Source: Thermoplasmata archaeon
GTDB lineage: Archaea; Thermoplasmatota; Thermoplasmata; Thermoplasmatales; GCA-001856825
DNA length: 64,000 nt
NCBI GenBank assembly: GCA_021817415.1
Contig: JAKAUZ010000084.1
Location: 17,221 to 81,220, forward strand
Direction: 5' to 3'
The notes beneath the pieces are model-generated. The model was not told where the DNA came from. It made no database searches and saw nothing but the letters and a program-made list of their open reading frames with translations. Positions 1 through 22,002 of this stretch are shown piece after piece. How positions within the stretch are numbered: position 1 is the stretch's first letter; each line of letters begins with the position of its first letter. A program made the position numbers and the translations under genes.

Positions 1-667
1 TGAAGAGTTCATATTTGTATCCTGCATCTTTACAATTTTCACTTTCTACGTTATATAATGGAAAAATCTTTAGTCCTGAATGATAGTCTATGAAATTCAA
101 TAGATAGAATTCATAAAGAAAATCTCTCATTATATAGAAACTGACAGTACTCATTGGGAACCCCTTCTCCTCTAGGAAAAATCTGACTTTGGAATCCTTC
201 GATCTATCCATGAGATTTCTTGGGATTTCAAGTTCGCCTGTACTGTAAAGCTGCTTTAAAAATTTAAAATAAGTTTCATTCTGTGAGTTAAGAAGCAATT
301 CAACAAACTTTAATGGACCTCTGACCTCATCTTTCTTCCACATTGCGGATAACTCTCTGGCCAAATCTGTTATCACATACCCATTGTTGTCCTTAATCGC
401 AAGTCTAGTTAGTCTAAATACCCGCAAGAATTGTTCTGCTTTCGTCAAGAAGGGCGGTCTCTTTGAACTGTCAAATGATTTCAATCTACCAGATCCCAGA
501 ACCCTAAAAGTGTTGGAAAGTCGGTTCTGGGAAGTCTTGATGAGAACTTGTCTTACATCTTCGATGTCGAAATGATCCTTTCTGAAACTGAGTTCATTCA
601 ACACCGCATGAACTTCGTGTCGGTATCTAACAGGTCTAATGCTAGTCCATCTGTCGAGTCCATTCAC
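1..667 (-). CDS. hypothetical protein, 5' portion only (gene runs off the left edge); co-directional partner immediately downstream of the SIR2 gene
   Basis: Own translation of the minus strand. The frame is open from 682 down to base 1, giving 222 complete codons from a GTG at 667-665, which lies 5 nt after the SIR2 stop. No ATG is present near the 5' end. The protein begins VNGLDRWTSIRPVRYRHEVHAVLNELSFRKDHFDIEDVRQVLIKTSQNRL and reads ...ESENCKDAGYKYELF at the window edge. It is absent from the ORF track because it is open-ended. I see no nameable motif and no Walker A. Confidence 0.5.
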   Translation of the reverse strand, partial: MNGLDRWTSIRPVRYRHEVHAVLNELSFRKDHFDIEDVRQVLIKTSQNRLSNTFRVLGSGRLKSFDSSKRPPFLTKAEQFLRVFRLTRLAIKDNNGYVITDLARELSAMWKKDEVRGPLKFVELLLNSQNETYFKFLKQLYSTGELEIPRNLMDRSKDSKVRFFLEEKGFPMSTVSFYIMRDFLYEFYLLNFIDYHSGLKIFPLYNVESENCKDAGYKYELF

Positions 668-671
668 TATT

Positions 672-1904
672 CTAATGTAACTTCACCCCAAAGTATTCTG
701 CTGCATCCGATTTTATTGGTTTTATTGCTTTGACAAGATTGGGATACTCTGACAAATTTCTTCTTACATTGTTTACTGCATTTCTATCGATGTAAATTAT
801 CTCGTACTCTCCTGGATCCGATGATATTGCATCATTAAGTACTTGACTTATCCACTTATCCCTGAATGAATAACCAATGACGTAACATTTTTTTTGCTCC
901 TTAAATCTCTTCTTTAGCAAGCTCAGCAATTCAAAATGTGGGTCGGATACGACATTTTTTGAAAGCCCCATAACTAGTACTCTTGACCTAACTTTGCTAT
1001 CGGGCCTAGATTCAATTATTTCGTTAGCTTCTTCAGTTTTCAGATAGGTCCCATTTTCAAGTTGTACGAGGTCTACAGATCCGTGTAGTTTATAGAGGAA
1101 AATACTTCCCCTTTCAGAGTGTTCGTAATTATCAAAATTTAATGTAATCCGGTCGTTTATTGTCTCATTGTAAAATTGAACTATATCTTGATTTATCGAG
1201 TCGCCAAACAGTTCTATAATATTGTCGTAATTGGTTGTAAAAAGATGAATATTGGATTCAATTCTTTTTGGATTACGCCTCTTCCATCCAGCATCCCCGG
1301 TTATCTTATGGAATAATTCCCCATATAACTTTATCACGTTTCTTCGAACCGTTGGCGCTTGAGTGTAAAAAGTGGAAAGCAAATATTCATGGTATTCGGT
1401 TATCAAATTATAAGCAATTTTGCTCTGACGCAGTCTAAATTTTCGCTGAGCTATTTTGGACAGCATCACGGCAGTGAATACATTGTTGTCCGCTGCATAA
1501 TATTTCGGTTTTGAGAAACCCTGGAAACAAGAGTACAAGGATTCAGAATCTAGTCTCCATCTACTTAGCTTTAGAAGCTTAATGAGTGAATTAATTTTTC
1601 TAATTTCTTTCTTACGTGTCTTACCATCGCTTATCGCCCTTTTGAGATATAGTTGGAAAGATTTAACAATTTCGACACTGGTAGGTAACCCAAAAAGCGA
1701 AGAAACTCCAGCTCCTATAAGCAACAAATGTCCAGTTTTTTCAGTCGTCAATGTCTTATCAGACGGAGGAGATATAAATGTCTTTCCATGTTTTAGGTAA
1801 CCCTTCGAAATATGGGTCCAATAAATAAAAGAGAGACTTGCAACTACTGTCTCGTATATTTTAGGTAAGATAGGTTTGTGTCTTCTCATGTACCACAAGT
1901 GCAT
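672..1904 (-). CDS. SIR2_2-family (sirtuin-like, predicted NAD+-consuming) defence-type protein, stand-alone domain
   Basis: 410-aa ORF carrying the SIR2_2 motif series in order: GHLLLIGAGVSSLFGLPT (codons around 1715-1701), LFTTNYDNIIE, LYKLHGSVD, VIGYSFRDKW. No extra recognisable domain is present. The start could be M1 (1904) or M6 (1889). Confidence 0.75.
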   Translation of the reverse strand: MHLWYMRRHKPILPKIYETVVASLSFIYWTHISKGYLKHGKTFISPPSDKTLTTEKTGHLLLIGAGVSSLFGLPTSVEIVKSFQLYLKRAISDGKTRKKEIRKINSLIKLLKLSRWRLDSESLYSCFQGFSKPKYYAADNNVFTAVMLSKIAQRKFRLRQSKIAYNLITEYHEYLLSTFYTQAPTVRRNVIKLYGELFHKITGDAGWKRRNPKRIESNIHLFTTNYDNIIELFGDSINQDIVQFYNETINDRITLNFDNYEHSERGSIFLYKLHGSVDLVQLENGTYLKTEEANEIIESRPDSKVRSRVLVMGLSKNVVSDPHFELLSLLKKRFKEQKKCYVIGYSFRDKWISQVLNDAISSDPGEYEIIYIDRNAVNNVRRNLSEYPNLVKAIKPIKSDAAEYFGVKLH

Positions 1905-1955
1905 GAATATGCACTAAAAGTATTTATTTATGCACATTATTGCACTTTGGTGCTA
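1900..1955. promoter_or_regulatory. divergent promoter region with helically phased TGCAC repeats flanking an AT-rich TATA-like element
   Basis: TGCAT at 1900, TGCAC at 1910, 1931 and 1941, and TGCTA at 1951, giving spacings of 10, 21, 10 and 10 nt. They flank AAAAGTATTTATTTA (1916-1930). The region lies between the SIR2 start (1904, minus) and the small ORF/methyltransferase operon (plus). Confidence 0.4.
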
Positions 1956-2125
1956 TGAATATACAGTTTTTCAATGTGAGCGAAGTTATTGAAATGAAAG
2001 TCGGTGAAGGGGGTAGGATCACTGGACTGAAAAAGTATGAGGGATCAATAATTAAGATAGTAGTATTTGACACAACTAAGAATGATGTACAAGAAGAAAC
2101 TAGTAAAAGGAGCGGTCAATATTGA
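1955..2125 (+). CDS. small hypothetical protein (56 aa from the ATG at 1955), translationally coupled to the methyltransferase; possible controller protein
   Basis: The ORF track gives 1940-2125 from a TTG; in-frame ATGs lie at 1955 and 1994. Its TGA stop (2123-2125) overlaps the TTG start (2122) of the next gene. The segment MKVGEGGRITGLKKYEGSIIKIVVF weakly recalls SpoVT/AbrB-type swapped-hairpin regulators, at very low certainty. Confidence 0.3.
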   Translation: MNIQFFNVSEVIEMKVGEGGRITGLKKYEGSIIKIVVFDTTKNDVQEETSKRSGQY

Positions 2126-5787: not shown

Positions 5788-7698
5788 TTGATTGAAATAG
5801 CAATGAAAGATGGGAAGCTAGAAATTTCCTTTCCAGAGAATCCGGAGCTTTATGAACAAATTGATTCGAGACTGACATTTATTTCCGTGCTTGGATTCGA
5901 ATACAATTCACTTGATCGCAAATTTGTTATGGAAAATATAAGTGACCTAGTTGGCCTTGTGTCTGCGGTTAGAACCTCGATTAGATATTTTGAAAGCGGT
6001 AGACTTCCATATGAATTCGACTCTAATATTGAGCGTATTATTCAGGCTGCTCAGGATTCCGACACGCAAATGATTAACTCGATAAATCGATGGAACGAAC
6101 TTAATGACTCTAATACGAGTCAAATCAGTGTCCCTGGCTTCGTCAGATCTCTCTTCCCTTATCAAATTAGAGGAGTATTGCATGGGCTAGGAGTGGACCA
6201 CCCTGCAAATTTCTCCGTCCCAGGGAGCGGTAAGACAACAATAGCTTATGCAATTTATTCGATTCTAAGAGCTCGAGGAGTCCTTGACAGGATGGTAGTA
6301 GTGGGGCCTAGCAGTTCTTTTATGCCGTGGGAGGATGAGTATGAAGCATGTTTCGGGAAAGGACCGGTCTCGTTGAGAGTGAGCGGAGACAAGGTTGATA
6401 CCTTAGAAGAAGATTTTGATAGAAGCGACCTAGTGCTCCTCACTTACCAGATGGCAAGCAGAATTACCCCAGAACTCATTCATTTGATGTCAAGATCAAA
6501 TACCTTTCTCATTCTTGATGAATCCCATAATATCAAGAGGTTCAGTGGCGGTCTTTGGTCAAGTTCTCTGCTGAAAGTGGCACCCTATGCAAGAAAGAGG
6601 ATGATTCTAACTGGAACTCCTATGCCAAATGATTATTTCGATTTGTGGAGTCAGTTCACTTTTTTGTGGCCCTTTAGAAATCTGCTCAAAGGTTCATCGG
6701 AGTACAAGACACTGGCTAAATCTAAAGACGGTAGGGAGAGAATAAAAGATATTGTAAGACCCTTTTATAACCGAATTAATAAGAGAGACCTAAATCTTCC
6801 CTCGCCAGAATTTAAAGTCATACGTGTGCCGATGGGCAAAGTTCAACAAAGAATTTATAAAGCTATCGCTGCGAAAACCCTTGCAGATCTAGCAAATCCT
6901 CCAAAGGAAAGGCAGATTCTAAGAGACTGGCGTAAATACAGAATTGTCAGGCTTCTCCAAGTAGCAACAAATCCCACTCTTTTGACAAAATATTCTGAGG
7001 AGTTTAGTGTTCCCCCGCTTTTTTCAGACAATCTGCCCATCTCATCCCTGATTCAACAATACCCAGAATACGAGATACCTTCTAAGATGGTCGAGACAGC
7101 AAAAATGACACGTGAGATCATGGACGGGGGTCAAAAAGTGTTGATTTGGACCGCTTTCATTCATAACATTAAGATGTTGCAGGGAATGCTTTCTGAGAGA
7201 AATCCGCTTATAATTTACGGTGGAATTCCAAAAGACGAAAGAGAAGACCAGGTGTTTAATAGAGAAAATATAATACGCGAGTTCAAAAATGACCCAAATC
7301 CTAGAGTCCTCATAGCAAACCCAAGTTCACTATCAGAATCTGTATCTTTACAAAAAGTCTGCATGAATGCAATATACCTTGATAGAACATTCAATGCGGG
7401 CCAATATATTCAGTCACTTGACAGAATTCATAGAATAGGTTTGGCACCGACAGATGTGGTCAAATACTATATATTGATAGCCGCCAACAGTGTGGACGAG
7501 GCAGTGCATTCAAGACTCAACCTGAAATTCAGTCGCCTACTTGAACTGCTAAACGATGAACTACCAATGGTCGATCTCGGTTCGGATCCTAGTCTTGTCA
7601 GTGAGGTAAGTGATCAGGAATTTGAAAAAGACTTCGAAGCTGTTTGTCGGCATTTGACCGATCTTCGTGACGTTGAGATGAATGCCTCCAAAAATTGA
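5788..7698 (+). CDS. SNF2-family (SF2) ATPase/translocase
   Basis: Motifs in order: LFPYQIRGV; Walker A VPGSGKTT (6220-6240); DExH box LILDESHN (DESH at 6517-6528); LTGTPMPN; helicase-C region KVLIWTAF; and motif VI QSLDRIHRIGL. The gene begins 12 nt after the previous gene. Confidence 0.85.
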   Translation: MIEIAMKDGKLEISFPENPELYEQIDSRLTFISVLGFEYNSLDRKFVMENISDLVGLVSAVRTSIRYFESGRLPYEFDSNIERIIQAAQDSDTQMINSINRWNELNDSNTSQISVPGFVRSLFPYQIRGVLHGLGVDHPANFSVPGSGKTTIAYAIYSILRARGVLDRMVVVGPSSSFMPWEDEYEACFGKGPVSLRVSGDKVDTLEEDFDRSDLVLLTYQMASRITPELIHLMSRSNTFLILDESHNIKRFSGGLWSSSLLKVAPYARKRMILTGTPMPNDYFDLWSQFTFLWPFRNLLKGSSEYKTLAKSKDGRERIKDIVRPFYNRINKRDLNLPSPEFKVIRVPMGKVQQRIYKAIAAKTLADLANPPKERQILRDWRKYRIVRLLQVATNPTLLTKYSEEFSVPPLFSDNLPISSLIQQYPEYEIPSKMVETAKMTREIMDGGQKVLIWTAFIHNIKMLQGMLSERNPLIIYGGIPKDEREDQVFNRENIIREFKNDPNPRVLIANPSSLSESVSLQKVCMNAIYLDRTFNAGQYIQSLDRIHRIGLAPTDVVKYYILIAANSVDEAVHSRLNLKFSRLLELLNDELPMVDLGSDPSLVSEVSDQEFEKDFEAVCRHLTDLRDVEMNASKN

Positions 7699-8659
7699 AG
7701 AGTTTAAAAGAGTTACTCATGCAGTTTCAATTTTAACAGGAGAGAGTCCGCCTGATAAAGAATACGTTATTGCTTATTGTCGTGAACAGGTTATAGGGGG
7801 CATATTTCCGAATCATGCTAAGAACATAGCTGTTTGCATTGAGTTGGGACTTATCGGTGAAAATGACAATCTCTTATTTTTAACTGAAAGTGGCACAGAG
7901 TTTCTTAGCCTGGGTAATCCTGACGAATATGAACTCAGTAACAGACAAAAAAAATTTCTTATTGACAAATGCTTCCTAACTGGTGCTGTTGCGGACAGAA
8001 CCAGACATATAATGCTCCAACTTTCTCCATCCTACACTGAGAACACATTCGTTTGGAACAAGTTAGATAGTACCCCTCTTGTTTGCGACCAAGAAGTCCT
8101 GGACATGCTTATCCAGTTGGGAATGTTGATGGAAGATGAAAATGGGCTTCATCTTGAAAGAGCTTATGTTAATGAGGTTAGAACGATAAGACAACAATCT
8201 CAACCCAAGACTTCAGAAGAACTCGCCAAGGAATTGGAAACCGACAAAAAAATAGGAGAAGCTGCAGAGTTGATTGCTCTCGAATTTGAGAAAAGGCGCC
8301 TTAGTGAGATTGGATGTGAATTCGAAGCAAGACTAGTCCAAAGGATAAGTGAACTAGATGTTGGAGCTGGTTTTGACATAATATCTTTTGACAAGCAGAG
8401 TACAAATCTTGTACCAGATCGATTTATAGAAGTTAAAGGATCTCGCGGTAATACCGTAAGATTCTACTGGACGAGGAACGAAATTGAAAAAGCGAAGGTA
8501 CTCCGTCAAAGATATTGGATATATTTTATAGGTGGTATAGAGGAGTATGACAAATCTCACTACAATGCTCCAATTCTCATACAGGATCCTTTTTTGAACA
8601 CGTTGACAAACGGCGACTACGATACTAAATGTGAAGTAATCTCTGTGTTAAAAAATTAA
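7682..8659 (+). CDS. DUF3883-domain protein (restriction-endonuclease-like fold) with an N-terminal wHTH-like region
   Basis: The C-terminal region reads AAELIALEFEKRRLSEIG...GAGFDIISFD...RFIEVKGSRG (IEVKG at 8426-8440)...FYWTRNEIEKAKVLRQRYWIYFI. This matches the DUF3883 pattern (GxDI-S ... IEVK ... NE...A ... Y-ly-V). It overlaps the SNF2 stop by 17 nt. Confidence 0.65.
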   Translation: MPPKIEEFKRVTHAVSILTGESPPDKEYVIAYCREQVIGGIFPNHAKNIAVCIELGLIGENDNLLFLTESGTEFLSLGNPDEYELSNRQKKFLIDKCFLTGAVADRTRHIMLQLSPSYTENTFVWNKLDSTPLVCDQEVLDMLIQLGMLMEDENGLHLERAYVNEVRTIRQQSQPKTSEELAKELETDKKIGEAAELIALEFEKRRLSEIGCEFEARLVQRISELDVGAGFDIISFDKQSTNLVPDRFIEVKGSRGNTVRFYWTRNEIEKAKVLRQRYWIYFIGGIEEYDKSHYNAPILIQDPFLNTLTNGDYDTKCEVISVLKN

Positions 8660-9462
8660 CCAATGTTCGACACAAGGTTTCCGTTCTAATATTGAACTAT
8701 ACGTAGCGCAATAATAATTATGAGAAATAGATCGTTTGTTTATATAGCTGCAATTCATCCCGTCTTTCAGATTCCATAGGGACTGAATTATAACAATGGA
8801 ATTTAACTCTGTACTTTAATTTATCATTTTGTACTTTTTTACACAATTAAAATACAAAGCCGCTCAAACATCAACTTCACATTATTTACGTAATATATCC
8901 AGTTCTATGGGGGTGCATTCCAATCTTCTGACGTATCCATTTCTGCAACGTCCGAATTCGTAAAGTATTACACCCTATCAAATGGAGAAATATGTAAGTA
9001 CATCAGGCTGATTGGATACTGATGGATGGCAGGAAGAAGAGGATTGTAAAGATAACGTCAACATTCGCGGCTTTGGAAGCTGTCTTCCTCCACTATGAGA
9101 TAAATGGCACTTGTCTTTATGGGTAGCTTGAGATTACTCTTCATTTATTTACTTGGGGGGCGATACCTATGCAGGGCGTTGTTTCCACAAGCTTGGTCTC
9201 TACTCTATCCCCTCATGAAGGACGTATCCTAGCTCTCCCCTAGGACCTCAGATTGATTGCATGAAAATACAACCTATTGTAGGAAAGCTCATCGACATTT
9301 TCCAAATAGTCCAGGAATTGCTCTATCTTCTTCTCAGCTTCATTGCCCAATTTTGAACTCTTTAGACTTTCTAGTTCAAGCTCGTAATACTTTTTAGTCC
9401 CTACCTTAAGATCTTCTTTCGCAACTAGTTATTGCATACACGGATCTGAACCATCTGGTGAA

Positions 9463-9564
9463 TCCCGGCTGCCGGATTTGAACCAGCGACCTGTGGATGG
9501 CGGCGGTCGCGCCGAAACGCTGTCCCTCTACAGTCCACCGCTCTACCAACTGAGCTAAGCCGGG
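9463..9564 (-). tRNA. tRNA-Tyr(GUA) with a 29-nt intron at the canonical 37/38 position
   Basis: Hand-folded cloverleaf. The acceptor stem is CCCGGCT/AGCCGGG (the C1:G72 pair typical of archaeal tRNA-Tyr). The D arm is GCTC-AGTTGGTA-GAGC. The anticodon stem is GTGGA/TCCAC with loop CT-GTA-G[intron 9527-9499]A. The T arm is GCTGG-TTCAAAT-CCGGC and the discriminator is A. CCA is not encoded. Confidence 0.85.
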
Positions 9565-9702
9565 TAATACTGTATTAGTATTCCTAAAAATATTTTTCCA
9601 TACGAGCCAAAATGCATTGACAGGATTGCGTAACTTTTAGAAAATTCAATTATGACAATATTAATGTACTCGTTGTTTATATGTTTATAAAGGTGACAAT
9701 AA

Positions 9703-10074
9703 ATGCCTATGCCATTCAGGAAAAGAACGATTATAAGGCCCGATAAACCACCAAAGGAACCAAGGAAATACATAGATTTGAATGATTATCAATTTGCAGA
9801 TGAGCCCGGACCCGGAACTGCAATTAAAATCGGAGAGATAGTAAAATTTGAAGATGTCCCACAATTTAGTGAAATTGTATATGACGGGGACGTTCTCATA
9901 TTAGATTACGGGTCAATACAATCAGATGAGCTGCTCCTCAAGAGAGTTGTTTCTGAGCTTAAGAGAGCAGCGAATGATAATGGAGGGGACGTAGTGGTAC
10001 TGGGCAATAAGTACGTGCTAGTGACTCCACGAGGAATGAAGATAGACAGGAACAAAATCAGGATCGAATCCTGA
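9703..10074 (+). CDS. sepF: cell division protein SepF (DUF552)
   Basis: 123 aa. The core reads IKIGEIVKFEDVPQFSEIVYDGDVLILDYGSIQSDELLLKRVVSELKRAANDNGGDVVVLGNKYVLVTPRGMKI, which matches the SepF/DUF552 layout. Confidence 0.65.
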   Translation: MPMPFRKRTIIRPDKPPKEPRKYIDLNDYQFADEPGPGTAIKIGEIVKFEDVPQFSEIVYDGDVLILDYGSIQSDELLLKRVVSELKRAANDNGGDVVVLGNKYVLVTPRGMKIDRNKIRIES

Positions 10075-10358
10075 ATATTTTTTTATTTTTAACAATTAAG
10101 AATAACAGAATTTCAACCTTTACGGCAGAAACCAATTGATGGAAATATATTTTTTATAAACAGTTCCGTATCTAACATGGATCTTATGGACCTGTAGCCC
10201 TGAATGGCTTGCATAGAAAGGTTCAGGCAAAAGGAGGACCGGAACATCTTCACATAAAGGTAGCATCAGAGAGTGTGGAGACCCTAGAGCTTCCAAACCT
10301 TTGGCCAAAGTGAGTATGTCAGGGTAAGTATTATTAGGAATATCAAAATCCGGGTTTC

Positions 10359-12446
10359 ATGGCTTTAAGTCTATTCGACTGGGAGATTTTTGTATTAATA
10401 TCAGCTCTCACAGGGTTGGTATATGCGGGCGTACAAAGCTATCTCCTTCTAAGAATTCCAGTCACTGAAAAAAAGCCCGAAGAAATTTCAAGAGCCATAA
10501 GAGAAGGATCAAATGCTTTCATGCGGAGACAGTATACCTCCATATTCACATTTGCTGCAGTTCTAGCAGTAATCATTTTTGTGGCATTTTATTTTTCGTC
10601 TGGGATATCAGAAGCATGGAAGCTGACTTTAGGATTCTTGGTAGGTGCGATTGGATCAGCAGTCGCAGGGCTCGTTGGAATGAATATTTCTGTTAGAACC
10701 AATGTCAGAACGGCAATTAGGGCCAAAGAAGGTTTAAATCCGGCCTTAAAGCTGGCATTTAGAGGAGGAACAGTTACAGGTTTGAGTGTAGCCTCTCTCG
10801 CCCTTCTTGGCCTAGTAGTCTTCTATATGTGGTTTCACAGTCCCCAGGCAATGGTGGGGTACATCTTTGGTGCATCTCTGGTAAGTCTATTCGCGAGGGT
10901 TGGCGGCGGGATATACACAAAAGGTGCAGATGTCGGTGCCGATTTGGTCGGGAAGGTAGAGGCAGGGATTCCGGAAGATGATCCCAGAAACCCAGCAGTA
11001 ATTGCAGATAATGTGGGTGACAATGTAGGGGACTGCGCTGGGATGGGAGCAGACCTGTTTGAAACATATGTTGTAACGGCTCTATCCGCAATGCTTCTGG
11101 CATCATTGATTATTGTAAACGGCTCAATTTACTGGGCTAAATTCAAGGGCAATGCAATCGTATTCCCCCTTGTCATTGGAGGAATAGCTATTCTGGCGAC
11201 AATAATTGGTTCTTTCTTTGTAAAGAAAAACAGTAATCAGAGAATTATGACCGCACTTTACAAAGGGCTCATCGCAACAGTCATCATTTCAGCTGTTGGT
11301 TTTTATGTCGCTGTTTATTACTTGATGGGTGGAAATTTAGCAATTTATGTAGATACCTTAGTAGGGATCATAATTATGCTGGTGATGGTGTACGTCACAG
11401 AGTACTACACTTCAGAAAGGTATTCTCCTGTTGCGAAGATAGCAAAAGCATCAAACACAGGGTCGGGAACAAACATAATCACCGGACTGGCTTATGGTCT
11501 GCAGGCCGTTTTTATTCCTGCTATTGTCATAGTTTCAGGGATCATCATTTCATTTGGCATCACTTATTTTTCATTGGGGGAAAATGCGCAACTGGGACTT
11601 TATGGAATAGCAGTTGCAGCAGCGAGCATGCTATCAGCTACCGGTATGATAATTTCCATCGATTCATATGGACCAATTACAGACAATGCGGGTGGCATCG
11701 CGGAAATGTCAGGATTTGACGAGAAAACAAGGAGGGAAGTTACAGACCCACTTGACGCAGTCGGCAACACAACAAAAGCAGTTACCAAAGGCTATGCGAT
11801 CGGGAGCGCAGCACTGGCGGCGCTGACTCTATTCGCAGCATTCAAAACACTTATTTCAGGAGTTTTCCCGACAATTCAGATCGATGATCCAATAGTGGTC
11901 TCAGGGCTGATTATAGGAGCCTCACTTCCATTCTTCTTCACCTCCTACTTGATGAACGCGGTAGGAAAGGCAGCATACTCAATAGTTGAAGAGGTCAGGA
12001 AGCAATTCAGGGAGAAGCCAGGTATATTATCGTGGACGGAAAAACCTGATTATGGCAAGGCAGTGGATATTGTGACACGGGAAGCACTGAGGCAGCTGAT
12101 GGTTCCAGCTCTGATCGCGGTTCTGACTCCTCTTGCAGTTGGATTTATTCTTGGTCCGGAAGCGTTAGGAGGGTTGCTGCTTGGAGTAATACTGTCTGGA
12201 TTCCCACTGGCTATCATGATGACCGTAGGAGGAGGAGCCTGGGACAATGCCAAGAAATACATAGAACAGGGAAACTATGGGGGAAAGGGTTCGGAGGCCC
12301 ATAAAGCTGCAGTAGTGGGAGACACGGTAGGAGATGCTACTAAAGATACCGCTGGACCTGCTATCAATCCACTAGTGAAAGTAGTGAATACAATTTCTAT
12401 CCTCTTTGTGACAATAATGCTTTACCACTACTTATTCCACATCTAA
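10359..12446 (+). CDS. hppA: membrane-bound proton/sodium-translocating pyrophosphatase
   Basis: 695 aa and polytopic. Signature motifs are GGGIYTKGADVGADLVGKVE, DNVGDNVGDCAGMGADLFE and GDTVGDATKDTAGPA. Confidence 0.95.
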   Translation: MALSLFDWEIFVLISALTGLVYAGVQSYLLLRIPVTEKKPEEISRAIREGSNAFMRRQYTSIFTFAAVLAVIIFVAFYFSSGISEAWKLTLGFLVGAIGSAVAGLVGMNISVRTNVRTAIRAKEGLNPALKLAFRGGTVTGLSVASLALLGLVVFYMWFHSPQAMVGYIFGASLVSLFARVGGGIYTKGADVGADLVGKVEAGIPEDDPRNPAVIADNVGDNVGDCAGMGADLFETYVVTALSAMLLASLIIVNGSIYWAKFKGNAIVFPLVIGGIAILATIIGSFFVKKNSNQRIMTALYKGLIATVIISAVGFYVAVYYLMGGNLAIYVDTLVGIIIMLVMVYVTEYYTSERYSPVAKIAKASNTGSGTNIITGLAYGLQAVFIPAIVIVSGIIISFGITYFSLGENAQLGLYGIAVAAASMLSATGMIISIDSYGPITDNAGGIAEMSGFDEKTRREVTDPLDAVGNTTKAVTKGYAIGSAALAALTLFAAFKTLISGVFPTIQIDDPIVVSGLIIGASLPFFFTSYLMNAVGKAAYSIVEEVRKQFREKPGILSWTEKPDYGKAVDIVTREALRQLMVPALIAVLTPLAVGFILGPEALGGLLLGVILSGFPLAIMMTVGGGAWDNAKKYIEQGNYGGKGSEAHKAAVVGDTVGDATKDTAGPAINPLVKVVNTISILFVTIMLYHYLFHI

Positions 12447-13513
12447 ACCTTATTTAATTCATTAATTATTCTTTTTAATTTCATACTTGTTTCTATGTCA
12501 TGCACCCTGACGATGTCTGCCCCACTGACAAAAGCCAGTGTATTGAAAATTAACGTGGATATCTCTCTTTCATCAACATTCTCGTTCATAATCCTTCCAA
12601 TGAATCCCTTCCTTGAAAGACCTATCATAAGTGGATATCCTATTTTGAATTCCTGCAGATTCTTTATTATGTCCAGATTATCCTCAACTCTCTTACCAAA
12701 CCCAATCCCCGGGTCCAAAATTATATTATCTTCAATTCCGATTCTTCGTGCTTTCAGTATCCGCTCGTAAAAGAAGTGCAGTATTTCCAAAATGACGTTT
12801 TCATATTCTGGGTTATCCTGCATCGTCTTGAAATCTCCCTTCTTGTGCATTATTACCAATGGGGCTCCATATCTCTTACACAAAATTCCAATTTCATCAT
12901 CCTCAAGACCTGTCACATCATTGATCATGTGGGCTCCAGTTTCAAGTGCCTGCCTGGCTACTTCCGATCTGTAGGTGTCGATCGACACCTTCAAACCCTT
13001 ATTCAGTGCCATTTCCAGTGGGTGCTTAAGCCTTCTCCACTCCTCATCGGGGTCAACTGGATCACTACCCGGTCTGGTACTTTCCCCTCCCAAATCAACT
13101 ATGTCAACGGCACTTCTTCTTACCAAATCAAAATATTCGTCTAGGCGAGACTCATCTAGCCTGCTGGGTGGATAAAAGGAATCAGGAGTCAGGTTCACTA
13201 TTGCCATCACCCTCTTTTCACCGAATCCAAGTACCTGTCCCCGGAGATCAATTGAGCCTCTATCCTGGTGCGTTTCTGAGAGGATCGGATGGTTCAGTCT
13301 GCTACGAATCTCCAATTCTTCTCTTTCTGCGAGCGGGTAAATCCTTGTCTTGCCGGCCTCATAGTTCAGTCTGTCCAGTCGGAATCTATTCGGGGTTATA
13401 AGAAAAGATTGATACCCTGCGAGGTTTCCCTCGGGAATATCGAACTGTCTTGCAATTGCCTTCCTCGAATGAATGATGTAATAATCGTCATTCCAGGATT
13501 GAAAATTGCGCAT
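12443..13513 (-). CDS. folP: dihydropteroate synthase-family protein with an N-terminal extension of about 95 aa
   Basis: Motifs are VMAIVNLTPDSFY, DIVDLGGESTRPG, SIDTYRSEVA and INDVTG. An N-terminal segment of about 95 aa, unknown to me, precedes the pterin-binding barrel. The convergent 4-nt overlap with hppA involves stop codons only. Confidence 0.8.
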   Translation of the reverse strand: MRNFQSWNDDYYIIHSRKAIARQFDIPEGNLAGYQSFLITPNRFRLDRLNYEAGKTRIYPLAEREELEIRSRLNHPILSETHQDRGSIDLRGQVLGFGEKRVMAIVNLTPDSFYPPSRLDESRLDEYFDLVRRSAVDIVDLGGESTRPGSDPVDPDEEWRRLKHPLEMALNKGLKVSIDTYRSEVARQALETGAHMINDVTGLEDDEIGILCKRYGAPLVIMHKKGDFKTMQDNPEYENVILEILHFFYERILKARRIGIEDNIILDPGIGFGKRVEDNLDIIKNLQEFKIGYPLMIGLSRKGFIGRIMNENVDEREISTLIFNTLAFVSGADIVRVHDIETSMKLKRIINELNKV

Positions 13514-13784
13514 GTGGTACCCCCTTGATCCTGAGGATGTTTGATGGAGATATGTACCCTATTTCCACTGCCTTGGAGACGGTCCTTTCACCAACCAGAT
13601 TTGCCACAGTACAGGTCGGGAACAGCTCAGCGAACTGTTCTTCTGTCACCAACATATCCTTGTAGAAACTTTCCTTGACTTTGATTGTGTATTTCCCGTC
13701 CTTGAATTCTTTTCCCATCAGGTCCTCATCGGCTGCTGCCAGAAGAGTGTCCTGAGGGGTCCTGTAAATCTTGACCCAGATCAT
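13488..13784 (-). CDS. DUF424-family small archaeal protein
   Basis: 98 aa. MIWVKIYRTPQDTLLAAADEDLMGKEFKDGKYTIKVKESFY fits my memory of the DUF424 pattern. The gene is packed between mcm (4-nt overlap) and folP. Confidence 0.55.
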   Translation of the reverse strand: MIWVKIYRTPQDTLLAAADEDLMGKEFKDGKYTIKVKESFYKDMLVTEEQFAELFPTCTVANLVGERTVSKAVEIGYISPSNILRIKGVPHAQFSILE

Positions 13785-15859
13785 GCATTCACCAGGTGAT
13801 ACGCATCATTCCTTGGTTCAGATAACTCCCCATGATTTCTGAGCTGTTTTATATTTTTTCTGACTTCATCCTCACTTATTCCAATCTTGGTTGCTCGCCT
13901 CACAATTTCCTGGAGGGGTGCTCCGGGACCTGTCTCGTTCTCTATCTCCCTGATTATTTCCCTAAGTTTGGGGAGAGCTTTCCTTTCCTTCGTGGAAATG
14001 CCTGAAATCAGGACGTCGATATCTGCCATTCCATTGACCATCGTTGTCTGGCTCAAGAAATATTCCATAAGATCAACTGCTCTTGTCACGTCATCATCGT
14101 CAATCCTGTCGCTAAGCCTGATTCTTGCAGAAGCTTCAGACAACCTGATCAGTGCCTCCAGTTGCCTGGGCGTGATGGCAATTGACTCCGCCTTGTTTCC
14201 AGTGGATGCTTTCCTCTTCTGTAGATAATATTCCTTTATTTTTTCCCTTGCTGATGGAGAAATGATAGGAAAACAGAACTTTCTCGCATAAACAATATAT
14301 TTCTTCATGATTTCCTGATCTATAGTGGCCCTGAAATCTGATTTTTGAACATTTATGCCGCTTGCCAGTTTTTCTCCATCTGAATGTACCCTGAGGATGT
14401 AGTCTGCCATGTCGCCATCACTTTTTCCAGGTCTGTCTACCAGGATGAAAATCAGATCGAACCTTGAAATCAAAGATGGTGGCATATCTGTCTGGGAGAC
14501 GAACGGGTCCTGTTCCTCATATCTTCCATATTTGGGGTTTGCGGCACCCAAAACTGCACATCTTGACATCAAAGTTGCGTTGATTCCGGCTTTCGCAATT
14601 GTAACTGATTGCTGCTCCATTGCTTCGTGCATTGCACTCCTATCGTCCTTATCCATCTTATCCAGTTCGTCCACTGCAGCCAGTCCGCCATCAGCAAGAA
14701 CCAAAGTACCAGCCTCGAGGGTCCACCTGCCTTCAGAGAATTCATCTTTCACTGCAGCTGCAGTCAATCCCGCTGCGGAACTTCCTTTTCCGGAGGTATA
14801 GATGGCCTTGGGCGAGACATTGACAGCATATCTCAACAGTTGACTCTTTGCAGTTCCAGGGTCACCGAAGAGCAGAACGTGTATTTCACCCCTTACTGCG
14901 CTGCCGTCCTCAAACCTCTTCCTTACCCCCCCGAATAGCTGGAGAACTATTGCTTCTTTGATCTTATCCATTCCAAATATTGTCGGGGCGATGCTCTTTA
15001 CAAGTTTGCTGTAAATCTCAGGACTGCTGGCCAGTTCCTTAATGAGCTGTTCGTCCTCCTCCGAAATCTCAACCTCTTCGTATTCTGTCGACTCTTTCTC
15101 CATGTAGAGTGCATTGAGATAAGTATCGAATTGTGTCGAAGGTACTGGTCCAATGCTTCTCTGTTTTCCTTTTAATATTCCAGTGACTGTTACCCTGTCT
15201 CCAGGGTAAAATTTACCACACAGATCATCCCAGAGGTGGATGTTCAACTTTGCTGGCTGGGAAGATCCCTTCATCAGTTCTGGTTTTTCCTGAATTTCTA
15301 TGCCCTGGGTGTCTACGAATAAACTCCTTTCCAGTTCGAATTTGAACTTGACCTTGCTCTCCTTTCCTTTTCCACATCTATTGCAGGAGATTGGTTCGTG
15401 CAGCCTGGAATCATCCTGCGGGTATAGTTCTACGGAATGGCAAAAGGAACATTCGAACGCTGCCATTGTTATTGTAGGAATGACCTCCGTTGCTCTCTTA
15501 ACAATCCCATCTACCTGGATGAATCTGTTGAGATCACTGCTCCGCAGTTCCCTGATGTTTTCTTTCAGGTCGGACAGTTTTGATGAAATGCGCAAGTTTA
15601 TTTTGTTCTCTTTGCTGACCTTGAATTCTTCAGGAAGGAACTCTTCATATAGTTCATTTTCCAGTAGATCCAGATATCTTTCCGGCTGGTCCAGGAAACT
15701 GAGAGCGAAGTCTCTGTTCACCTGATCAATTTCTTCATACTTGAAAATAAGGGAGCGATCCCTTGGATACTGGGAAATGAGCTTGGAGATGTCCAGTGCC
15801 TTATTTGTAAGTATAGTATTCCAAAGTCTTTTTATTTCATCCTCCCTGAATTCTCTCAT
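13781..15859 (-). CDS. mcm: minichromosome maintenance (MCM) replicative helicase
   Basis: 692 aa. The Zn finger is CSFCHS...CNRCGK. Walker A is LLFGDPGTAKSQLL, Walker B is LAAVDELDKM, and the arginine finger is SRFDLIF. A C-terminal wH region is present. Confidence 0.95.
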   Translation of the reverse strand: MREFREDEIKRLWNTILTNKALDISKLISQYPRDRSLIFKYEEIDQVNRDFALSFLDQPERYLDLLENELYEEFLPEEFKVSKENKINLRISSKLSDLKENIRELRSSDLNRFIQVDGIVKRATEVIPTITMAAFECSFCHSVELYPQDDSRLHEPISCNRCGKGKESKVKFKFELERSLFVDTQGIEIQEKPELMKGSSQPAKLNIHLWDDLCGKFYPGDRVTVTGILKGKQRSIGPVPSTQFDTYLNALYMEKESTEYEEVEISEEDEQLIKELASSPEIYSKLVKSIAPTIFGMDKIKEAIVLQLFGGVRKRFEDGSAVRGEIHVLLFGDPGTAKSQLLRYAVNVSPKAIYTSGKGSSAAGLTAAAVKDEFSEGRWTLEAGTLVLADGGLAAVDELDKMDKDDRSAMHEAMEQQSVTIAKAGINATLMSRCAVLGAANPKYGRYEEQDPFVSQTDMPPSLISRFDLIFILVDRPGKSDGDMADYILRVHSDGEKLASGINVQKSDFRATIDQEIMKKYIVYARKFCFPIISPSAREKIKEYYLQKRKASTGNKAESIAITPRQLEALIRLSEASARIRLSDRIDDDDVTRAVDLMEYFLSQTTMVNGMADIDVLISGISTKERKALPKLREIIREIENETGPGAPLQEIVRRATKIGISEDEVRKNIKQLRNHGELSEPRNDAYHLVNA

Positions 15860-15981
15860 TATCCATGGTATTAGGATGCTTATTTTATCTTTTTGAATTC
15901 TCCTGACGTTTAATTGTCAAGTGATTTATCAGGAGAGTACGGAATATTTATCTAATTGGGGTTAATTCATGGCGTAAAATC

Positions 15982-16054
15982 GCAGGTGTTGTGTAGCCTG
16001 GTAGCACAAAGGCCTTCCAAGCCTTTAGCCCGGGTTCAAATCCCGGCACCTGCA
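15982..16054 (+). tRNA. tRNA-Gly(UCC)
   Basis: Hand-folded, 73 nt. The acceptor stem is GCAGGTG/CACCTGC. The anticodon stem is AAGGC/GCCTT with loop CT-TCC-AA. The T arm is CCGGG-TTCAAAT-CCCGG. ORF-track ORF 15956-16327 reads through this tRNA and is not a real single CDS. Confidence 0.9.
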
Positions 16055-16084
16055 TCAAGGAACTTTGTTTCTGAAGTCAGGGAT

Positions 16085-16486
16085 ATGGATAAACAACTGA
16101 TAGATAAGCAGCTGAAGAGTGTATTTGTATCTGAAAACAAGGATGATGCCCTCCAGAGACTAAAGGAATTCAAATCTGAGTGTATAGAGAGCTATCCGAG
16201 GCAGACATACAGTCTTGAGAAGAAGGTGAACTACCTGCTCACCTACTTCCAATACCCTCATGCCATAAGGAGATCAATACACTCCAACAGCATCATTGAA
16301 AGAATGAACAAGGAAGTGAGAAGATGAACAAATGTGATAGATTCCCTTCCTACCGAGAATTCAGCACTTAAGATCGTTTATCTGAGGATGAATCGACTAA
16401 AAGAGAAGATATCTCACAGAGTCCCTAACGGATATTTCAAATGCAGGGATGACTTGAGAGAAACGTTCAGCGCGAGGTATCCGTGA
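16085..16486 (+). pseudogene. IS256/Mutator-family transposase, C-terminal fragment with an in-frame stop
   Basis: ...SYPRQTYSLEKKVNYLLTYFQYPHAIRRSIHSNSIIERMNKEVRR then TGA (16325-16327) then TNVIDSLPTENSALKIVYLRMNRLKEK... This matches the conserved C-terminal end of IS256-type transposases (..ERxNxExRRRxxVxxxFPxxxSxxRLxxL..). The catalytic N-terminal two thirds are absent. Confidence 0.7.
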
Positions 16487-16568
16487 TTTGCACAACCTTT
16501 GTGTCACATTCCTCGTTTTTTAAAGGTAATAAAATAAGTTTTAAATATATTTTAAAAATGAAGTAAAT

Positions 16569-17930
16569 GTGGATATTGAAAAAATCAGGAATGTTATTTT
16601 ATCTGTCAACATTCGTATAGTCCTCTTTTCCCTATTTCTGACAATAGTTCTTGATCTCATTTACATTAGGATCATAAGAAACGTATCCTTGCTCGATTAT
16701 GTCATCATCGAAATCGTGACATTCATGGCGCTGGATTTGCTGATATCTTCCTTGGGAAAAAGAGGATATTTCTCATACCTGTCCAGGAACACCTCACTTG
16801 TCAAGAGAAGTATAAGATGTGCGAGCAGGAAGGAGAAAAGGGCGATGGATGCGAAAATTGAGGGTTTTCTGAGGAAAGAAGGAATGGACAGTAAAATCTT
16901 CGGCACAATCCAAATGGCGACTGAAATCCATCGTTTCGATCCTCCCCTAAGGGAAAATGATTCCCACTTTTTAGTTTCTCTGGAGAATTTGGGATACGAG
17001 AGGAATGAGATGACTGAAAGATATTCCGATTCAAACGACGATAGTAGGGATCATATAACATCACTTGACTTTCAGAATTTCAAGAAAAGAGAGGACGTTG
17101 TGCTGGAGGACAATTCGACTATATGGGTCACTGGGATAAGGGTGATGGAAGGAGATGAGAATTCTCAAGGCAAGAAACTTGTTTTGAGGTATGCTGAGAC
17201 CGGATATTATAGGAAATACAGCCTTAATAGATTACTGCATTGCAAATTTCCGTGGGAACCAAGATATCCAATTGAGCACATTATTGACAATCTAGAGAGC
17301 ATTAAAGGAAAGGATTTCACCTTCCTCAGGGGATTACCTTCCGGTCTCGGGTGCGAAGTCTCGGTCATCACGAGTGACGGAAAATACATCATTGTACAGA
17401 GATCTCACAAGGAGGCTGTTGCGAGGTTCAAGCTGATACAGGCATCTTCAGGAGCCTATGATCTCGAAGACTTCTATTCAAGTGAGGGAAAGATCAATGA
17501 GAATGAGAACCACGTAAGCAGTTTGTTTAGGGGAGCAAGACGGGAACTTGAATTTGAAACCGGTATAATCACGAAATATGGGGGAACGAATTTTTCTGGA
17601 ACTCAAGATTCGATGCTCCTGTTATCGGCATATTATTTCGTGGATATCAATGCCGTAAATTTCATATTCCTTTACAAAACTAGCCTTACATTTGAACAAT
17701 TTAAAGAAAAATTTCGGAAAGAACAATCCAAGGAAAAATGGGAATCCAGAAGAATCTTGAGCCTTGACATCAGAGACATTATATCGGATTCACCAGAATT
17801 CGAGAATTTTATGATAAAACATAGGAATATCTTGTCCGATCAGCTAATTGTCAGCATCTATTCTCTCAAGGAATATTATGGATCCATCAATAGGGCAAAT
17901 GGTCTCTCGCGGAGGGCTGAAGGACATTGA
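16569..17930 (+). CDS. hypothetical protein: two N-terminal TM helices plus a C-terminal domain with a divergent Nudix box
   Basis: 453 aa. The two hydrophobic helices are IRIVLFSLFLTIVLDLIYIRII and YVIIEIVTFMALDLLISSL. Later, VITSDGKYIIVQR ... GKINENE-NHVSSLFRGA-RRELEFETGI approximates the Nudix box GX5EX7REUXEEXGU, with a 3-residue longer spacer and one Glu replaced by Phe. Confidence 0.4.
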   Translation: MDIEKIRNVILSVNIRIVLFSLFLTIVLDLIYIRIIRNVSLLDYVIIEIVTFMALDLLISSLGKRGYFSYLSRNTSLVKRSIRCASRKEKRAMDAKIEGFLRKEGMDSKIFGTIQMATEIHRFDPPLRENDSHFLVSLENLGYERNEMTERYSDSNDDSRDHITSLDFQNFKKREDVVLEDNSTIWVTGIRVMEGDENSQGKKLVLRYAETGYYRKYSLNRLLHCKFPWEPRYPIEHIIDNLESIKGKDFTFLRGLPSGLGCEVSVITSDGKYIIVQRSHKEAVARFKLIQASSGAYDLEDFYSSEGKINENENHVSSLFRGARRELEFETGIITKYGGTNFSGTQDSMLLLSAYYFVDINAVNFIFLYKTSLTFEQFKEKFRKEQSKEKWESRRILSLDIRDIISDSPEFENFMIKHRNILSDQLIVSIYSLKEYYGSINRANGLSRRAEGH

Positions 17931-19217: not shown

Positions 19218-19439
19218 ATCTGTACCTTTTAATATAATTATGAATCTTCGTTATATGAATATTTCCTCTGATGACATGAGTTTGAACTGAGTCAAGTCTT
19301 ACGAGCCTCTGCCTTAGTAGCACTGTTTGCTCATTCGAAGAATGTGTAAATGTAAAGAAAAAACTCCACCTAATCCCTCAACTGATGTGCAGATCAGAAA
19401 AATTAGAAATTAATTTAAATAATGTTTCAATAGCAATGG

Positions 19440-20342: not shown

Positions 20343-20468
20343 CCCGGTATACAGGATGCTTTAGTCAGAAGAGCATGTATCCGTCTCCCTGCTCCCTGGT
20401 TCAGTCAATCATAGCTATAAAACAAGGATAAAATAATATGCACGCCAGCGATTGTATGACAGAAATGT

Positions 20469-22001: not shown

Positions 22002-22002
22002 T

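What the first reader, a model, noticed from the sequence alone, without database searches (positions are those of the whole stretch)
1..1904. Stand-alone SIR2_2 protein with an unrecognisable downstream partner: possible new SIR2-based NAD+-depletion module
**Seen in sequence.** The 410-aa protein is essentially only a SIR2_2 domain (GAGVS, TTNYD, KLHGS, GYSFRD). A second minus-strand ORF starts 5 nt after its stop and stays open for 222 codons to the window edge. I translated it by hand; it is not in the ORF track.

**Established knowledge.** SIR2_2 domains are NADase effectors in Thoeris ThsA, DSR1/DSR2, SIR2-HerA and SIR2-APAZ/short-pAgo systems. In each case they are coupled to a sensor domain or partner protein.

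**Inference.** No SLOG, APAZ or HerA P-loop is visible in either protein within the window. The partner may therefore be a new sensor. Its middle segment (FLRVFRLTRLAIKDNNGYVITDLAREL) looks winged-helix-like.
Basis: partly seen in the sequence, partly recalled or inferred. Interest (0 to 1): 0.62.

Follow-up and report, generated by a model that had tools for sequence, protein, structure and literature searches.

The report
SIR2, winged-helix protein, ORC-like ATPase operon
The stand-alone SIR2 gene is the first gene of a conserved three-gene operon (a predicted NAD+-destroying enzyme, a protein built from several winged-helix domains, and an ORC/Cdc6-like ATPase) that sits in anti-virus gene islands of scattered archaea and matches no described defence system, so it is probably an undescribed SIR2-based immune module.

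Summary
The window holds a 410-aa SIR2_2 protein and, 4 nt after its stop, the first 222 codons of a second gene.

Reading the contig to the left completes the picture:
- The partner is 336 aa.
- A third gene follows with a 4-nt overlap. It encodes a 367-aa P-loop ATPase.

The order SIR2, partner, ATPase recurs with tight coupling in at least nine independent loci at 22-63% identity. These include Nitrosarchaeum and other archaeal MAGs, soil and sediment metagenomes, and one integrase-bearing IMG/VR contig.

Neither the partner nor the ATPase family matches any Pfam, NCBIfam or PADLOC model. AlphaFold models (pLDDT 91) show the partner as an array of about four winged-helix domains with no full-length structural relative. 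The ATPase is an Orc1/Cdc6-like AAA+ protein that also resembles RdrA and BrxC. It is not HerA.

In related loci the SIR2 slot is taken by a PD-(D/E)xK-like protein, an HD-like protein or an ABC ATPase, while the partner-ATPase pair stays. SIR2 keeps its catalytic N, D and H.

Best reading: a winged-helix plus AAA+ sensor and switch pair that controls a SIR2 NADase effector. It is a new variant of the known SIR2 abortive-infection theme. No function has been tested.

The parts
672..1904 (-). Gene 1: SIR2_2-family protein. It is 410 aa from the first ATG. Alternative starts are the ATG at 1889 and the TTG at 1751, and relatives are 338-353 aa. Predicted NADase effector. NAD loop G64-x-G66-x-S68; catalytic N225, D227, H274; G344-YSF-x-D349.
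   Evidence: The catalytic assignment follows PMC11472057.
1..667 (-). Gene 2: the partner, 336 aa in all. Only residues 1-222 lie inside the window (bases 2-667). The whole gene is contig C49 16877-17887, which would be window -343 to 667. It is an array of about four winged-helix domains plus a small beta subdomain. The N-terminal 100 residues are basic (pI 10.9). N191, R265 and K312 are invariant. Conserved motif SFYxxRDxxYxFxLLN.

Gene 3 lies entirely left of the window, so it cannot be listed as a part of its own. It is the 367-aa ORC/Cdc6-like AAA+ ATPase at contig C49 15777-16880, minus strand, which would be window -1443 to -340. It overlaps gene 2 by 4 nt. Walker A G67-x-GKS71; Walker B F202-L-D204-Q-F-E207 (DQ, not DE); H244; R293; R324 in the lid. 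It has no C-terminal winged helix.
   Evidence: Partner. ATPase.
1905..2121 (.). Divergent intergenic region shared with the neighbouring methylase cassette. An AT-rich TATA-like run lies at about 1919-1930, upstream of the SIR2 ATG.
Evidence: sequence only, no transcript data.

Best explanation
This is a three-gene, horizontally acquired anti-virus module.

Proposed mechanism:
1. The winged-helix array protein and the ORC/Cdc6-like AAA+ ATPase form a sensor and switch pair. The pair most likely recognises invading nucleic acid. Together the two proteins supply what a single Orc1/Cdc6 protein combines, namely AAA+ domain, lid and winged helix.
2. ATP-dependent assembly of the pair on its ligand activates the SIR2 protein, which is otherwise auto-inhibited.
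3. SIR2 hydrolyses NAD+ and arrests the infected cell (abortive infection).

Shown here: gene order and coupling, conservation, the folds, intact catalytic and ATPase motifs, replacement of the effector in related loci, the defence-island setting and the patchy distribution.

Inferred: complex formation, the ligand, NADase activity and protection against viruses.
For: 1. Operon. The gap between SIR2 and the partner is 4 nt, and the partner and ATPase overlap by 4 nt.

2. The same order and tight spacing recur in these loci:
- L003
- L007 Nitrosarchaeum and L008
- L012-14 and L016, where flanking gene fragments match the SIR2 and ATPase profiles
- L015
- L022
- L025/26
Wherever sequence exists downstream of a partner gene, the ATPase follows.

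3. Co-inheritance. The identity matrices of the three proteins give the same groupings.

4. Effector swap on a constant partner-ATPase core:
- a 181-209-aa protein with invariant D74...E87-x-K89 (L009, L019-21, G638)
- a 588-aa protein with a weak HD hit (L017)
- an AAA_15/AAA_21 ATPase (L024)

5. SIR2. It passes the Pfam SIR2_2 cut-off. Its best PADLOC hits are Argonaute-associated SIR2 at 3e-21. Its best PDB relatives are the SIR2 proteins of SIR2-HerA (8w9l, 2.8e-15), with catalytic N/D/H aligned.

6. ATPase. The model has pLDDT 91.0. Top Foldseek hits are Orc1/Cdc6 (2qby_A, E 2.5e-6, TM 0.49), RdrA of RADAR and the BrxC N-terminal ATPase. Walker A and candidate arginine residues are invariant in 24 sequences.

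7. Partner. The model has pLDDT 90.9. Only weak fold hits appear, all to proteins with several winged helices: the FokI recognition domain, Stn1, RNA polymerase III C34, JetB and MukE.

8. Setting.
- The island has low GC: operon 37.4% against 43.2% for the genome.
- It lies next to a tRNA and contains an IS transposase.
- It sits beside a methylase-SNF2 cassette.
- Other copies sit beside restriction-modification genes, and one lies on an integrase-bearing viral contig.

9. Patchy distribution. A full-length partner occurs in 1 of 401 genomes sampled from the window's phylum and in 2 of 401 Nitrososphaeria.
Against: - There is no experimental evidence of any kind.
- Complex formation and the ligand are inferred from gene linkage and fold alone.
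- The partner's winged-helix assignment rests on a predicted model whose best Foldseek E-value is 0.066.
- The Walker B motif reads DQ instead of DE in all 24 members. The ATPase may therefore bind ATP but hydrolyse it slowly.
- SIR2_2 domains can have activities other than NAD+ hydrolysis.
- The effector-swap loci are few. Two of the alternative effectors are identified only by a motif or a sub-threshold hit.
- In one locus (L008) the partner is split into two ORFs.
Confidence: 0.62

Rival explanations
1. Methylation-linked (restriction-modification-like) system. An adjacent DNA methyltransferase marks host DNA, and the winged-helix and AAA+ pair reads unmodified foreign DNA before firing SIR2. 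Alternatively, the triad senses DNA ends made by a neighbouring restriction enzyme.
For: A DNA methyltransferase lies within one or two genes of the triad in L003, L008, L015, L022, L024 and L025, and divergently in the window. The methyltransferases of L022, L024 and L025 are 68-79% identical although their positions and orientations differ. The ATPase fold resembles BrxC of the methylation-dependent BREX system. The top fold hit of the partner is the FokI DNA-recognition domain.
Against: In L022, L024 and L025 the methyltransferase travels with its own conserved partner of about 312 aa (63-77% identical). In L017 it travels with an EcoO109I-type endonuclease. Both cases look like ordinary type II systems next door. 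L007 has no methyltransferase nearby. The methyltransferase families differ between loci (N6_N4, D12, DUF1156). An earlier follow-up (e1-3559855) assigns the window's methyltransferase to a separate conserved four-gene cassette. Restriction-modification genes are common in any defence island.
Confidence: 0.15
2. Split STAND/NLR-like receptor, analogous to Avs5. The ATPase acts as the nucleotide-binding oligomerisation module, and the partner is a sensor that binds a viral protein rather than DNA. Oligomerisation then activates SIR2.
For: Some ATPase family members give sub-threshold Pfam hits to nSTAND1, NACHT, NB-ARC and AAA_16. Avs5 shows that the combination of SIR2 with a STAND NTPase exists (PMC11897194, listed). 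The ATPase lacks the winged helix that a STAND module needs, and the partner could supply it.
Against: The top 50 Foldseek hits are ORC/Cdc6, RdrA, BrxC and other AAA+ proteins. No Avs or NLR structure is among them. The gene order is SIR2, partner, ATPase, not SIR2, NTPase, sensor. The partner is made of winged-helix domains with a very basic N-terminal part (pI 10.9), which favours nucleic acid as the ligand.
Confidence: 0.13
3. Not a defence system. Instead, a regulatory or chromatin module in which a SIR2-type deacylase or ADP-ribosyltransferase is targeted to DNA by an ORC-like ATPase and a winged-helix protein. Alternatively, an inactive remnant.
For: Canonical sirtuins modify archaeal chromatin proteins (established knowledge). 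ORC-like and winged-helix proteins are typical of replication and chromatin. No function has been tested.
Against: - The protein belongs to SIR2_2 (PF13289), the family of defence NADases, not to the canonical sirtuins.
- The partner occurs in 1 of 401 genomes of the phylum.
- The island has low GC and lies next to a tRNA and an IS element.
- The SIR2 slot is taken by nuclease-like proteins in relatives.
- All three reading frames are intact, and all motifs are conserved.
Confidence: 0.06

Closest known systems
SIR2-HerA (Nezha) anti-phage system
   Same: A stand-alone SIR2_2 protein of about 340-410 aa is encoded beside a P-loop ATPase. The SIR2 proteins of this system are the closest solved relatives (8w9l E 2.8e-15, 8yhx, 8j4u), and the catalytic N/D/H align. 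In that system the ATPase activates an auto-inhibited NADase (PMC11472057).
   Different: The ATPase here is an ORC/Cdc6-like AAA+ protein of 367 aa, not a HerA/FtsK-type hexameric translocase. There is an obligatory third protein, the winged-helix array. No PADLOC HerA model is hit.
Argonaute-associated SIR2 (SPARSA and long-B pAgo-SIR2 systems)
   Same: The best PADLOC profiles for the SIR2 protein are Aga_SIR2 (3.3e-21 and 3.9e-21). In both cases a nucleic-acid sensor is coupled to NAD+ depletion.
   Different: There is no APAZ, MID or PIWI domain. The partner model has no Argonaute or APAZ hit among the 50 best listed PDB matches, and no Pfam or PADLOC hit.
Avs5 (SIR2-STAND) and other NTPase-gated effectors such as RADAR RdrA-RdrB
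   Same: An oligomerising P-loop NTPase of the ORC/STAND lineage controls an enzymatic effector. RdrA is among the best structural matches of the ATPase (8hr8_A, E 1.3e-5).
   Different: Avs5 is one polypeptide, and RADAR uses a deaminase. Here the functions are divided among three small proteins, and the effector slot is interchangeable.
BREX ATPases BrxC and BrxD (ORC/Cdc6-clade AAA+)
   Same: The fold is similar to the BrxC N-terminal ATPase (9zll_B, E 1e-4). A distant branch of the partner-ATPase pair sits next to a short BrxL-like gene and type 1 BREX genes.
   Different: There are no PglZ, PglX, BrxA or BrxB genes in the triad. The ATPase matches no BREX model in Pfam or PADLOC. It is a third of the size of BrxC.
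Archaeal Orc1/Cdc6 replication initiators
   Same: These are the best structural matches (2qby_A, 1w5s, 1fnn; TM about 0.5). The ATPase has an AAA+ core and a lid with a conserved arginine.
   Different: Sequence identity is 11-16%. The C-terminal winged helix is absent. There is a large helical insert at about residues 118-195. Walker B reads DQ. The gene lies in a mobile island, and the partner family is found in only 1 of 401 related genomes.

Membership tests
SIR2_2 defence-type sirtuin-like NADases (PF13289) | Profile match above the curated cut-off | tested here: met
   49.3 bits against a cut-off of 24.5, E 7e-13. There are 21 PADLOC SIR2 models with hits.
SIR2_2 defence-type sirtuin-like NADases (PF13289) | NAD-binding GxGxS loop and catalytic Asn/Asp/His | tested here: met
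   G64, G66, S68, N225, D227 and H274 are invariant in five members. They align with N163/D165/H212 of 8W9L (residues named in PMC11472057).
SIR2_2 defence-type sirtuin-like NADases (PF13289) | NAD+ hydrolysis on activation | not testable with these tools
   This needs an enzyme assay.
SIR2-HerA (Nezha) | Adjacent HerA/FtsK-superfamily ATPase | tested here: not met
   The adjacent ATPase folds as an ORC/Cdc6-like AAA+ protein, and no HerA appears in the top 50 Foldseek hits. No Pfam or PADLOC HerA hit was found for 24 members.
Short pAgo SPARSA and pAgo-associated SIR2 | APAZ domain and a pAgo (MID-PIWI) gene in the operon | tested here: not met
   Neither neighbour matches any Argonaute or APAZ model. 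The partner model shows no such fold hit.
Thoeris (ThsA-ThsB) | SLOG domain on the SIR2 protein and a TIR-domain ThsB gene | tested here: not met
   Only SIR2_2 is found on the 410-aa protein. No TIR hit was found in the neighbouring genes.
DSR1/DSR2 | Single large protein (over 1000 aa) with an N-terminal SIR2 and a C-terminal sensor | tested here: not met
   The protein has 410 aa or fewer and sits in a three-gene operon.
Avs5 (SIR2-STAND) | SIR2, STAND NTPase and sensor fused in one polypeptide | tested here: not met
   The genes are separate. The ATPase is closest to ORC/Cdc6, and STAND Pfam hits are only sub-threshold.
Lamassu with a SIR2 effector | SMC-like LmuB ATPase with a coiled coil | tested here: not met
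   The ATPase is a compact 367-aa AAA+ protein. No PADLOC Lmu model is hit.
ORC/Cdc6-clade AAA+ ATPases | Walker A, Walker B, lid domain with a sensor-2 arginine | tested here: met
   GxGKS71, D204 and R324 are invariant. The ATPase shows a weak match (E 1.4e-4, 22.2 bits, below the 27-bit cut-off) to the RFC-like AAA+ lid model PF21960. Foldseek probability is 1.00 to Orc1/Cdc6. Walker B is DQ instead of DE.
ORC/Cdc6-clade AAA+ ATPases | C-terminal winged-helix DNA-binding domain | tested here: not met
   The model ends after the lid helices (H323-339, short H354-359) and has no winged helix.

The most novel reading that the evidence does not exclude
The winged-helix array protein and the wH-less ORC/Cdc6-like ATPase together form a previously unrecognised sensing module that works with any effector. 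It would be in effect a split replication-initiator-like DNA reader. The module defines a new family of modular defence systems with at least four effector classes: SIR2, PD-(D/E)xK-like, HD-like and ABC ATPase. It is so far confirmed in archaeal genomes, and the unassigned metagenomic loci may include bacteria. The window's SIR2 triad would be its most common form. It may act as a second layer beside restriction-modification systems.
Probability: 0.35. Interest if true: 0.72.

Novelty: new variant of a known kind. Interest (0 to 1): 0.62.

Why it matters
SIR2 NADases are a major class of effector in prokaryotic immunity, and every characterised one depends on a specific sensor: HerA, pAgo/APAZ, SLOG, STAND, or the DSR tail-tube sensor.

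This locus would add a new sensor solution. It is built from two protein families that have no annotation in Pfam, NCBIfam or PADLOC, and it is found mostly in archaea, whose defence systems are poorly explored.

The constant partner-ATPase pair combined with interchangeable effectors gives a clear, testable unit. The division of ORC-like functions (AAA+ and lid in one protein, winged helices in another) also bears on how replication-initiator-type ATPases were recruited into immunity, as in BREX and RADAR.

Tried and rejected
Searches that found nothing:
- Single-sequence searches of the partner and the ATPase against Pfam, NCBIfam, PADLOC and PDB.
- Profile searches of both families against PDB.
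- A scan of all 40 partner and 24 ATPase family members against PADLOC and Pfam. This gave only sporadic sub-threshold hits.
- Foldseek of the partner model against PDB and BFVD. No match had E below 0.06.
- Four literature searches for a SIR2 system with an ORC-like ATPase or a winged-helix partner, and one more search that returned no papers. The BREX survey PMC12839542 does not mention SIR2.
- Look-ups of earlier scan notes by sequence and among relatives.
- A PDB profile search with the 209-aa alternative effector. Its nuclease assignment rests on the D...ExK motif only.

Searches limited by method:
- The word-indexed homology search missed even relatives at 35% identity. The profile search and the exhaustive search were needed.

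Readings rejected:
- HerA, APAZ/pAgo, SLOG/TIR, DSR, Lamassu and Kongming. See the membership tests.
- The idea that the methyltransferase is an integral fourth gene was downgraded. In three loci it has its own conserved neighbour, and in one an EcoO109I-type endonuclease.
Full report
**1. Observation**

The window edge cuts an operon on the minus strand.
- ORF 672-1904 encodes a 410-aa protein.
- Four bases after its stop, a GTG at 667 opens a frame that runs 222 codons to base 2.
- The 410-aa protein matches Pfam SIR2_2 above the curated cut-off (49.3 bits against 24.5) and matches nothing else.
- The window is contig C49:17221-81220 of a 2.03-Mb, 88-contig assembly. The assembly carries a full-length archaeal 16S rRNA gene.

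**2. Completing the operon**

I fetched the 17 kb to the left.
- The second gene is 336 aa (C49 16877-17887).
- A third gene follows with a 4-nt overlap. It encodes 367 aa (C49 15777-16880), with Walker A GYGKS and the sequence IFLDQFED.
- About 640 nt of non-coding DNA and a convergent gene follow.
- The unit therefore has three genes: SIR2, partner and ATPase.
- Each gene is single-copy in the genome.

**3. Is the triad conserved?**

The partner has few relatives in the word-indexed search. An exhaustive phmmer search of 1.84 billion representatives finds 46 at E<=1e-3, nearly all 310-355 aa long.

Loci carrying the triad in the order SIR2, partner, ATPase:

| Locus | Source | Gene sizes (aa) |
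|---|---|---|
| L003 | sediment metagenome | 352-330-370; 32-35% identical to the window proteins |
| L007 | Nitrosarchaeum MAG | 338-328-367 |
| L008 | uncultured archaeon | 353-(205+103)-361; partner split in two ORFs |
| L015 | metagenome | 342-341-370 |
| L022 | IMG/VR contig with an integrase | 350-357-372 |
| L025/26 | metagenome | 341-355-372 |

- On the short contigs L012-14 and L016, the truncated flanking genes match the SIR2 profile (E 1e-20 to 2e-21) and the ATPase profile (E 1e-21 to 1e-43).
- Gene junctions are overlaps of 4-11 nt or gaps of 0-5 nt in every SIR2-type locus.
- Pairwise identities of the three proteins give the same groupings. L022 against L025 is 55, 61 and 63%. 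L003 against L007 is 38, 43 and 40-43%. The three genes are therefore inherited as one unit.

**4. The effector slot is interchangeable**

In other loci the partner-ATPase pair is kept, but the upstream gene differs:
- **L017/L018.** A 588-aa protein with a weak HD hit.
- **L024.** A 347-aa AAA_15/AAA_21 ABC-type ATPase.
- **A distant branch** (L009 Bathyarchaeota, L019-21, one further JGI contig, G638 Nitrososphaeria). A 181-209-aa protein with invariant D74, E87 and K89, which is a PD-(D/E)xK-type motif.
  - In this branch the partner-like protein still matches the partner profile at E 1e-26 to 1e-28.
  - The ATPase is longer, at 409-435 aa.
  - A short BrxL-like gene often follows.
  - A divergent SMC_N/AAA_23 gene accompanies the cassette, and type 1 BREX genes lie next to it in L019-21.

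A constant pair with variable enzymatic neighbours is the usual signature of a sensor module with swappable effectors. This is an inference.

**5. The three proteins**

*SIR2.*
- G64, G66, S68, N225, D227, H274 and G344-D349 are invariant in five members.
- A family profile finds the SIR2 proteins of SIR2-HerA as the closest solved structures (8w9l at 2.8e-15, 8yhx, 8j4u). SIR2-APAZ and KomC follow.
- The aligned residues are the N163/D165/H212 that the authors of 8W9L call catalytic (PMC11472057).
- The best PADLOC profiles are Argonaute-associated SIR2.
- Relatives begin 51-55 residues downstream of the window's first ATG. An in-frame TTG at 1751 would give a protein of matching length. A TATA-like run at about 1919-1930 sits just upstream of the ATGs at 1904 and 1889. 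The start codon is unresolved.

*Partner.*
- The AlphaFold2 model, built with a 40-sequence alignment, has pLDDT 90.9 and pTM 0.89.
- Its secondary structure reads as about four winged-helix units (roughly 16-99, 101-150, 155-203 and 236-331) plus a small beta subdomain (205-232).
- Foldseek finds nothing significant in PDB or BFVD. The weak hits are all to proteins with several winged helices: the FokI recognition domain, Stn1, RNA polymerase III C34, JetB, MukE, ESCRT-II and Dcc1.
- The N-terminal 100 residues have pI 10.9.
- N191, R265 and K312 are invariant.

*ATPase.*
- The model has pLDDT 91.0 and pTM 0.89.
- Foldseek gives probability 1.00 to archaeal Orc1/Cdc6 (2qby_A at 2.5e-6, TM 0.49). 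RdrA of RADAR, eukaryotic ORC/Cdc6, the BrxC N-terminal ATPase and PABY2304 follow. No HerA appears.
- G67, G69, K70, S71, D204, Q205, E207, H244, R293 and R324 are invariant in 24 sequences.
- Two features stand out. Walker B reads DQ, not DE, in every member. The C-terminal winged helix of Orc1/Cdc6 is missing.
- The partner could supply winged helices in trans. This is an inference.

*Annotation status.* Neither family is covered by Pfam, NCBIfam or PADLOC, even when every member is scanned.

**6. Setting**
- The operon has 37.4% GC against 43.2% for the genome. A low-GC stretch runs from about C49 10,000 to 27,500.
- The stretch contains an IS transposase (DDE_Tnp_1 plus SWIM) and a DUF2130 gene. 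It ends at a tRNA.
- A full-length partner gene occurs in 1 of 401 genomes sampled from the window's phylum and in 2 of 401 from the class of the Nitrosarchaeum MAG.
- This patchiness, the island setting and the copy on an integrase-bearing viral contig fit a mobile defence module.

**7. Methyltransferases**
- A DNA methyltransferase lies within one or two genes of most triads.
- In L022, L024 and L025 the methyltransferase (68-79% identical between loci) travels with its own conserved gene of about 312 aa (63-77% identical).
- In L017 it travels with an EcoO109I-type endonuclease.
- L007 has none.
- I therefore treat these as neighbouring type II restriction-modification systems. A functional link stays open as a rival at about 15%.

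**8. Mechanism**

Most likely (confidence 0.62), the winged-helix protein and the AAA+ ATPase form a nucleic-acid sensor and ATP-dependent switch. Its assembly relieves auto-inhibition of the SIR2 NADase. NAD+ is then depleted and the infected cell stops growing.
- The precedent for ATPase-driven activation of an auto-inhibited stand-alone SIR2 is SIR2-HerA (PMC11472057).
- The precedents for ORC-type AAA+ proteins in immunity are RADAR RdrA and BREX BrxC.
- The rivals are a methylation-linked variant, a split STAND-like protein sensor and a non-defence chromatin role. They are set out in the rival explanations with their tests.

**9. Comparison and novelty**
- The SIR2 protein is a member of the SIR2_2 defence clade.
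- The system is not SIR2-HerA, SPARSA, Thoeris, DSR, Avs5, Lamassu or Kongming. In each case a defining component was looked for and not found.
- Seven literature searches in all (and one malformed query that was rejected) turned up no description of this triad.
- I class it as a new variant of a known kind: a SIR2 effector gated by an NTPase sensor. Two of its protein families are uncharacterised.
- Nothing has been tested experimentally, and expression could not be examined.

Noticed in passing
L009 4364-8702; L019 5408-9749; L040 (G638) 6896-9749: A distant branch of the partner-ATPase pair is preceded by a 181-209-aa protein with an invariant D...ExK motif. It is often followed by a short BrxL-like gene (BrxL_N plus ATPase, about 475 aa, with no C-terminal Lon-protease domain). 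A divergent SMC_N/AAA_23 gene of about 825 aa accompanies it. In L019-21 it lies directly next to type 1 BREX genes (brxA, brxB, brxC, pglX).
   Followed up: partly
L022 2195-4318; L024 4743-6894; L025 4245-6188: A conserved pair lies beside three different triads, in different orientations. It consists of an N6_N4 DNA methyltransferase (68-79% identical between loci) and a protein of about 312 aa with no Pfam match (63-77% identical). It is probably an unannotated type II restriction-modification system.
   Followed up: partly
L008 4993-5914: In the uncultured-archaeon MAG the partner gene is split into two ORFs of 205 and 103 aa, and both match the partner profile. The cause is a frameshift, a pseudogene or an assembly error.
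   Followed up: no
window 1749-1904: The SIR2 ORF carries about 51 N-terminal residues that are absent from all relatives. An in-frame TTG at 1751 would give a protein of the family's usual length. ATGs at 1904 and 1889 lie just downstream of a TATA-like run at about 1919-1930. The start codon is unresolved.
   Followed up: partly
contig C49 15777-16880 (left of the window; would be window -1443 to -340): The Walker B motif of the ATPase reads hhhhDQFE, with Q where AAA+ proteins normally have the catalytic E. This holds in all 24 family members. It suggests ATP binding with slow hydrolysis, or a relocated catalytic glutamate (E207).
   Followed up: no
contig C49 about 10000-27500 (window up to about 10300): A low-GC island (about 39% against 43.2% for the genome). 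It holds a DUF2130 gene, an IS transposase (DDE_Tnp_1 plus SWIM), a 100-aa winged-helix gene, a 383-aa gene with no match, the SIR2 triad and the methylase-SNF2 cassette. It ends at a tRNA (window 9463-9564).
   Followed up: partly
L030-L039 (Nitrososphaeria genomes): Profile positions of about 205-295 of the partner (its last winged-helix domain, motif LRD...ISDxQF) match weakly (E 1e-4 to 1e-8). The matching open frames are about 180-630 aa long, many of them near 220 aa. They occur in 24 of 401 Nitrososphaeria genomes, so this domain has an independent family.
   Followed up: no
L017 194-2817: An EcoO109I-type restriction endonuclease, with a methyltransferase fragment before it, directly precedes the variant of the module that carries the HD-like effector.
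   Followed up: no
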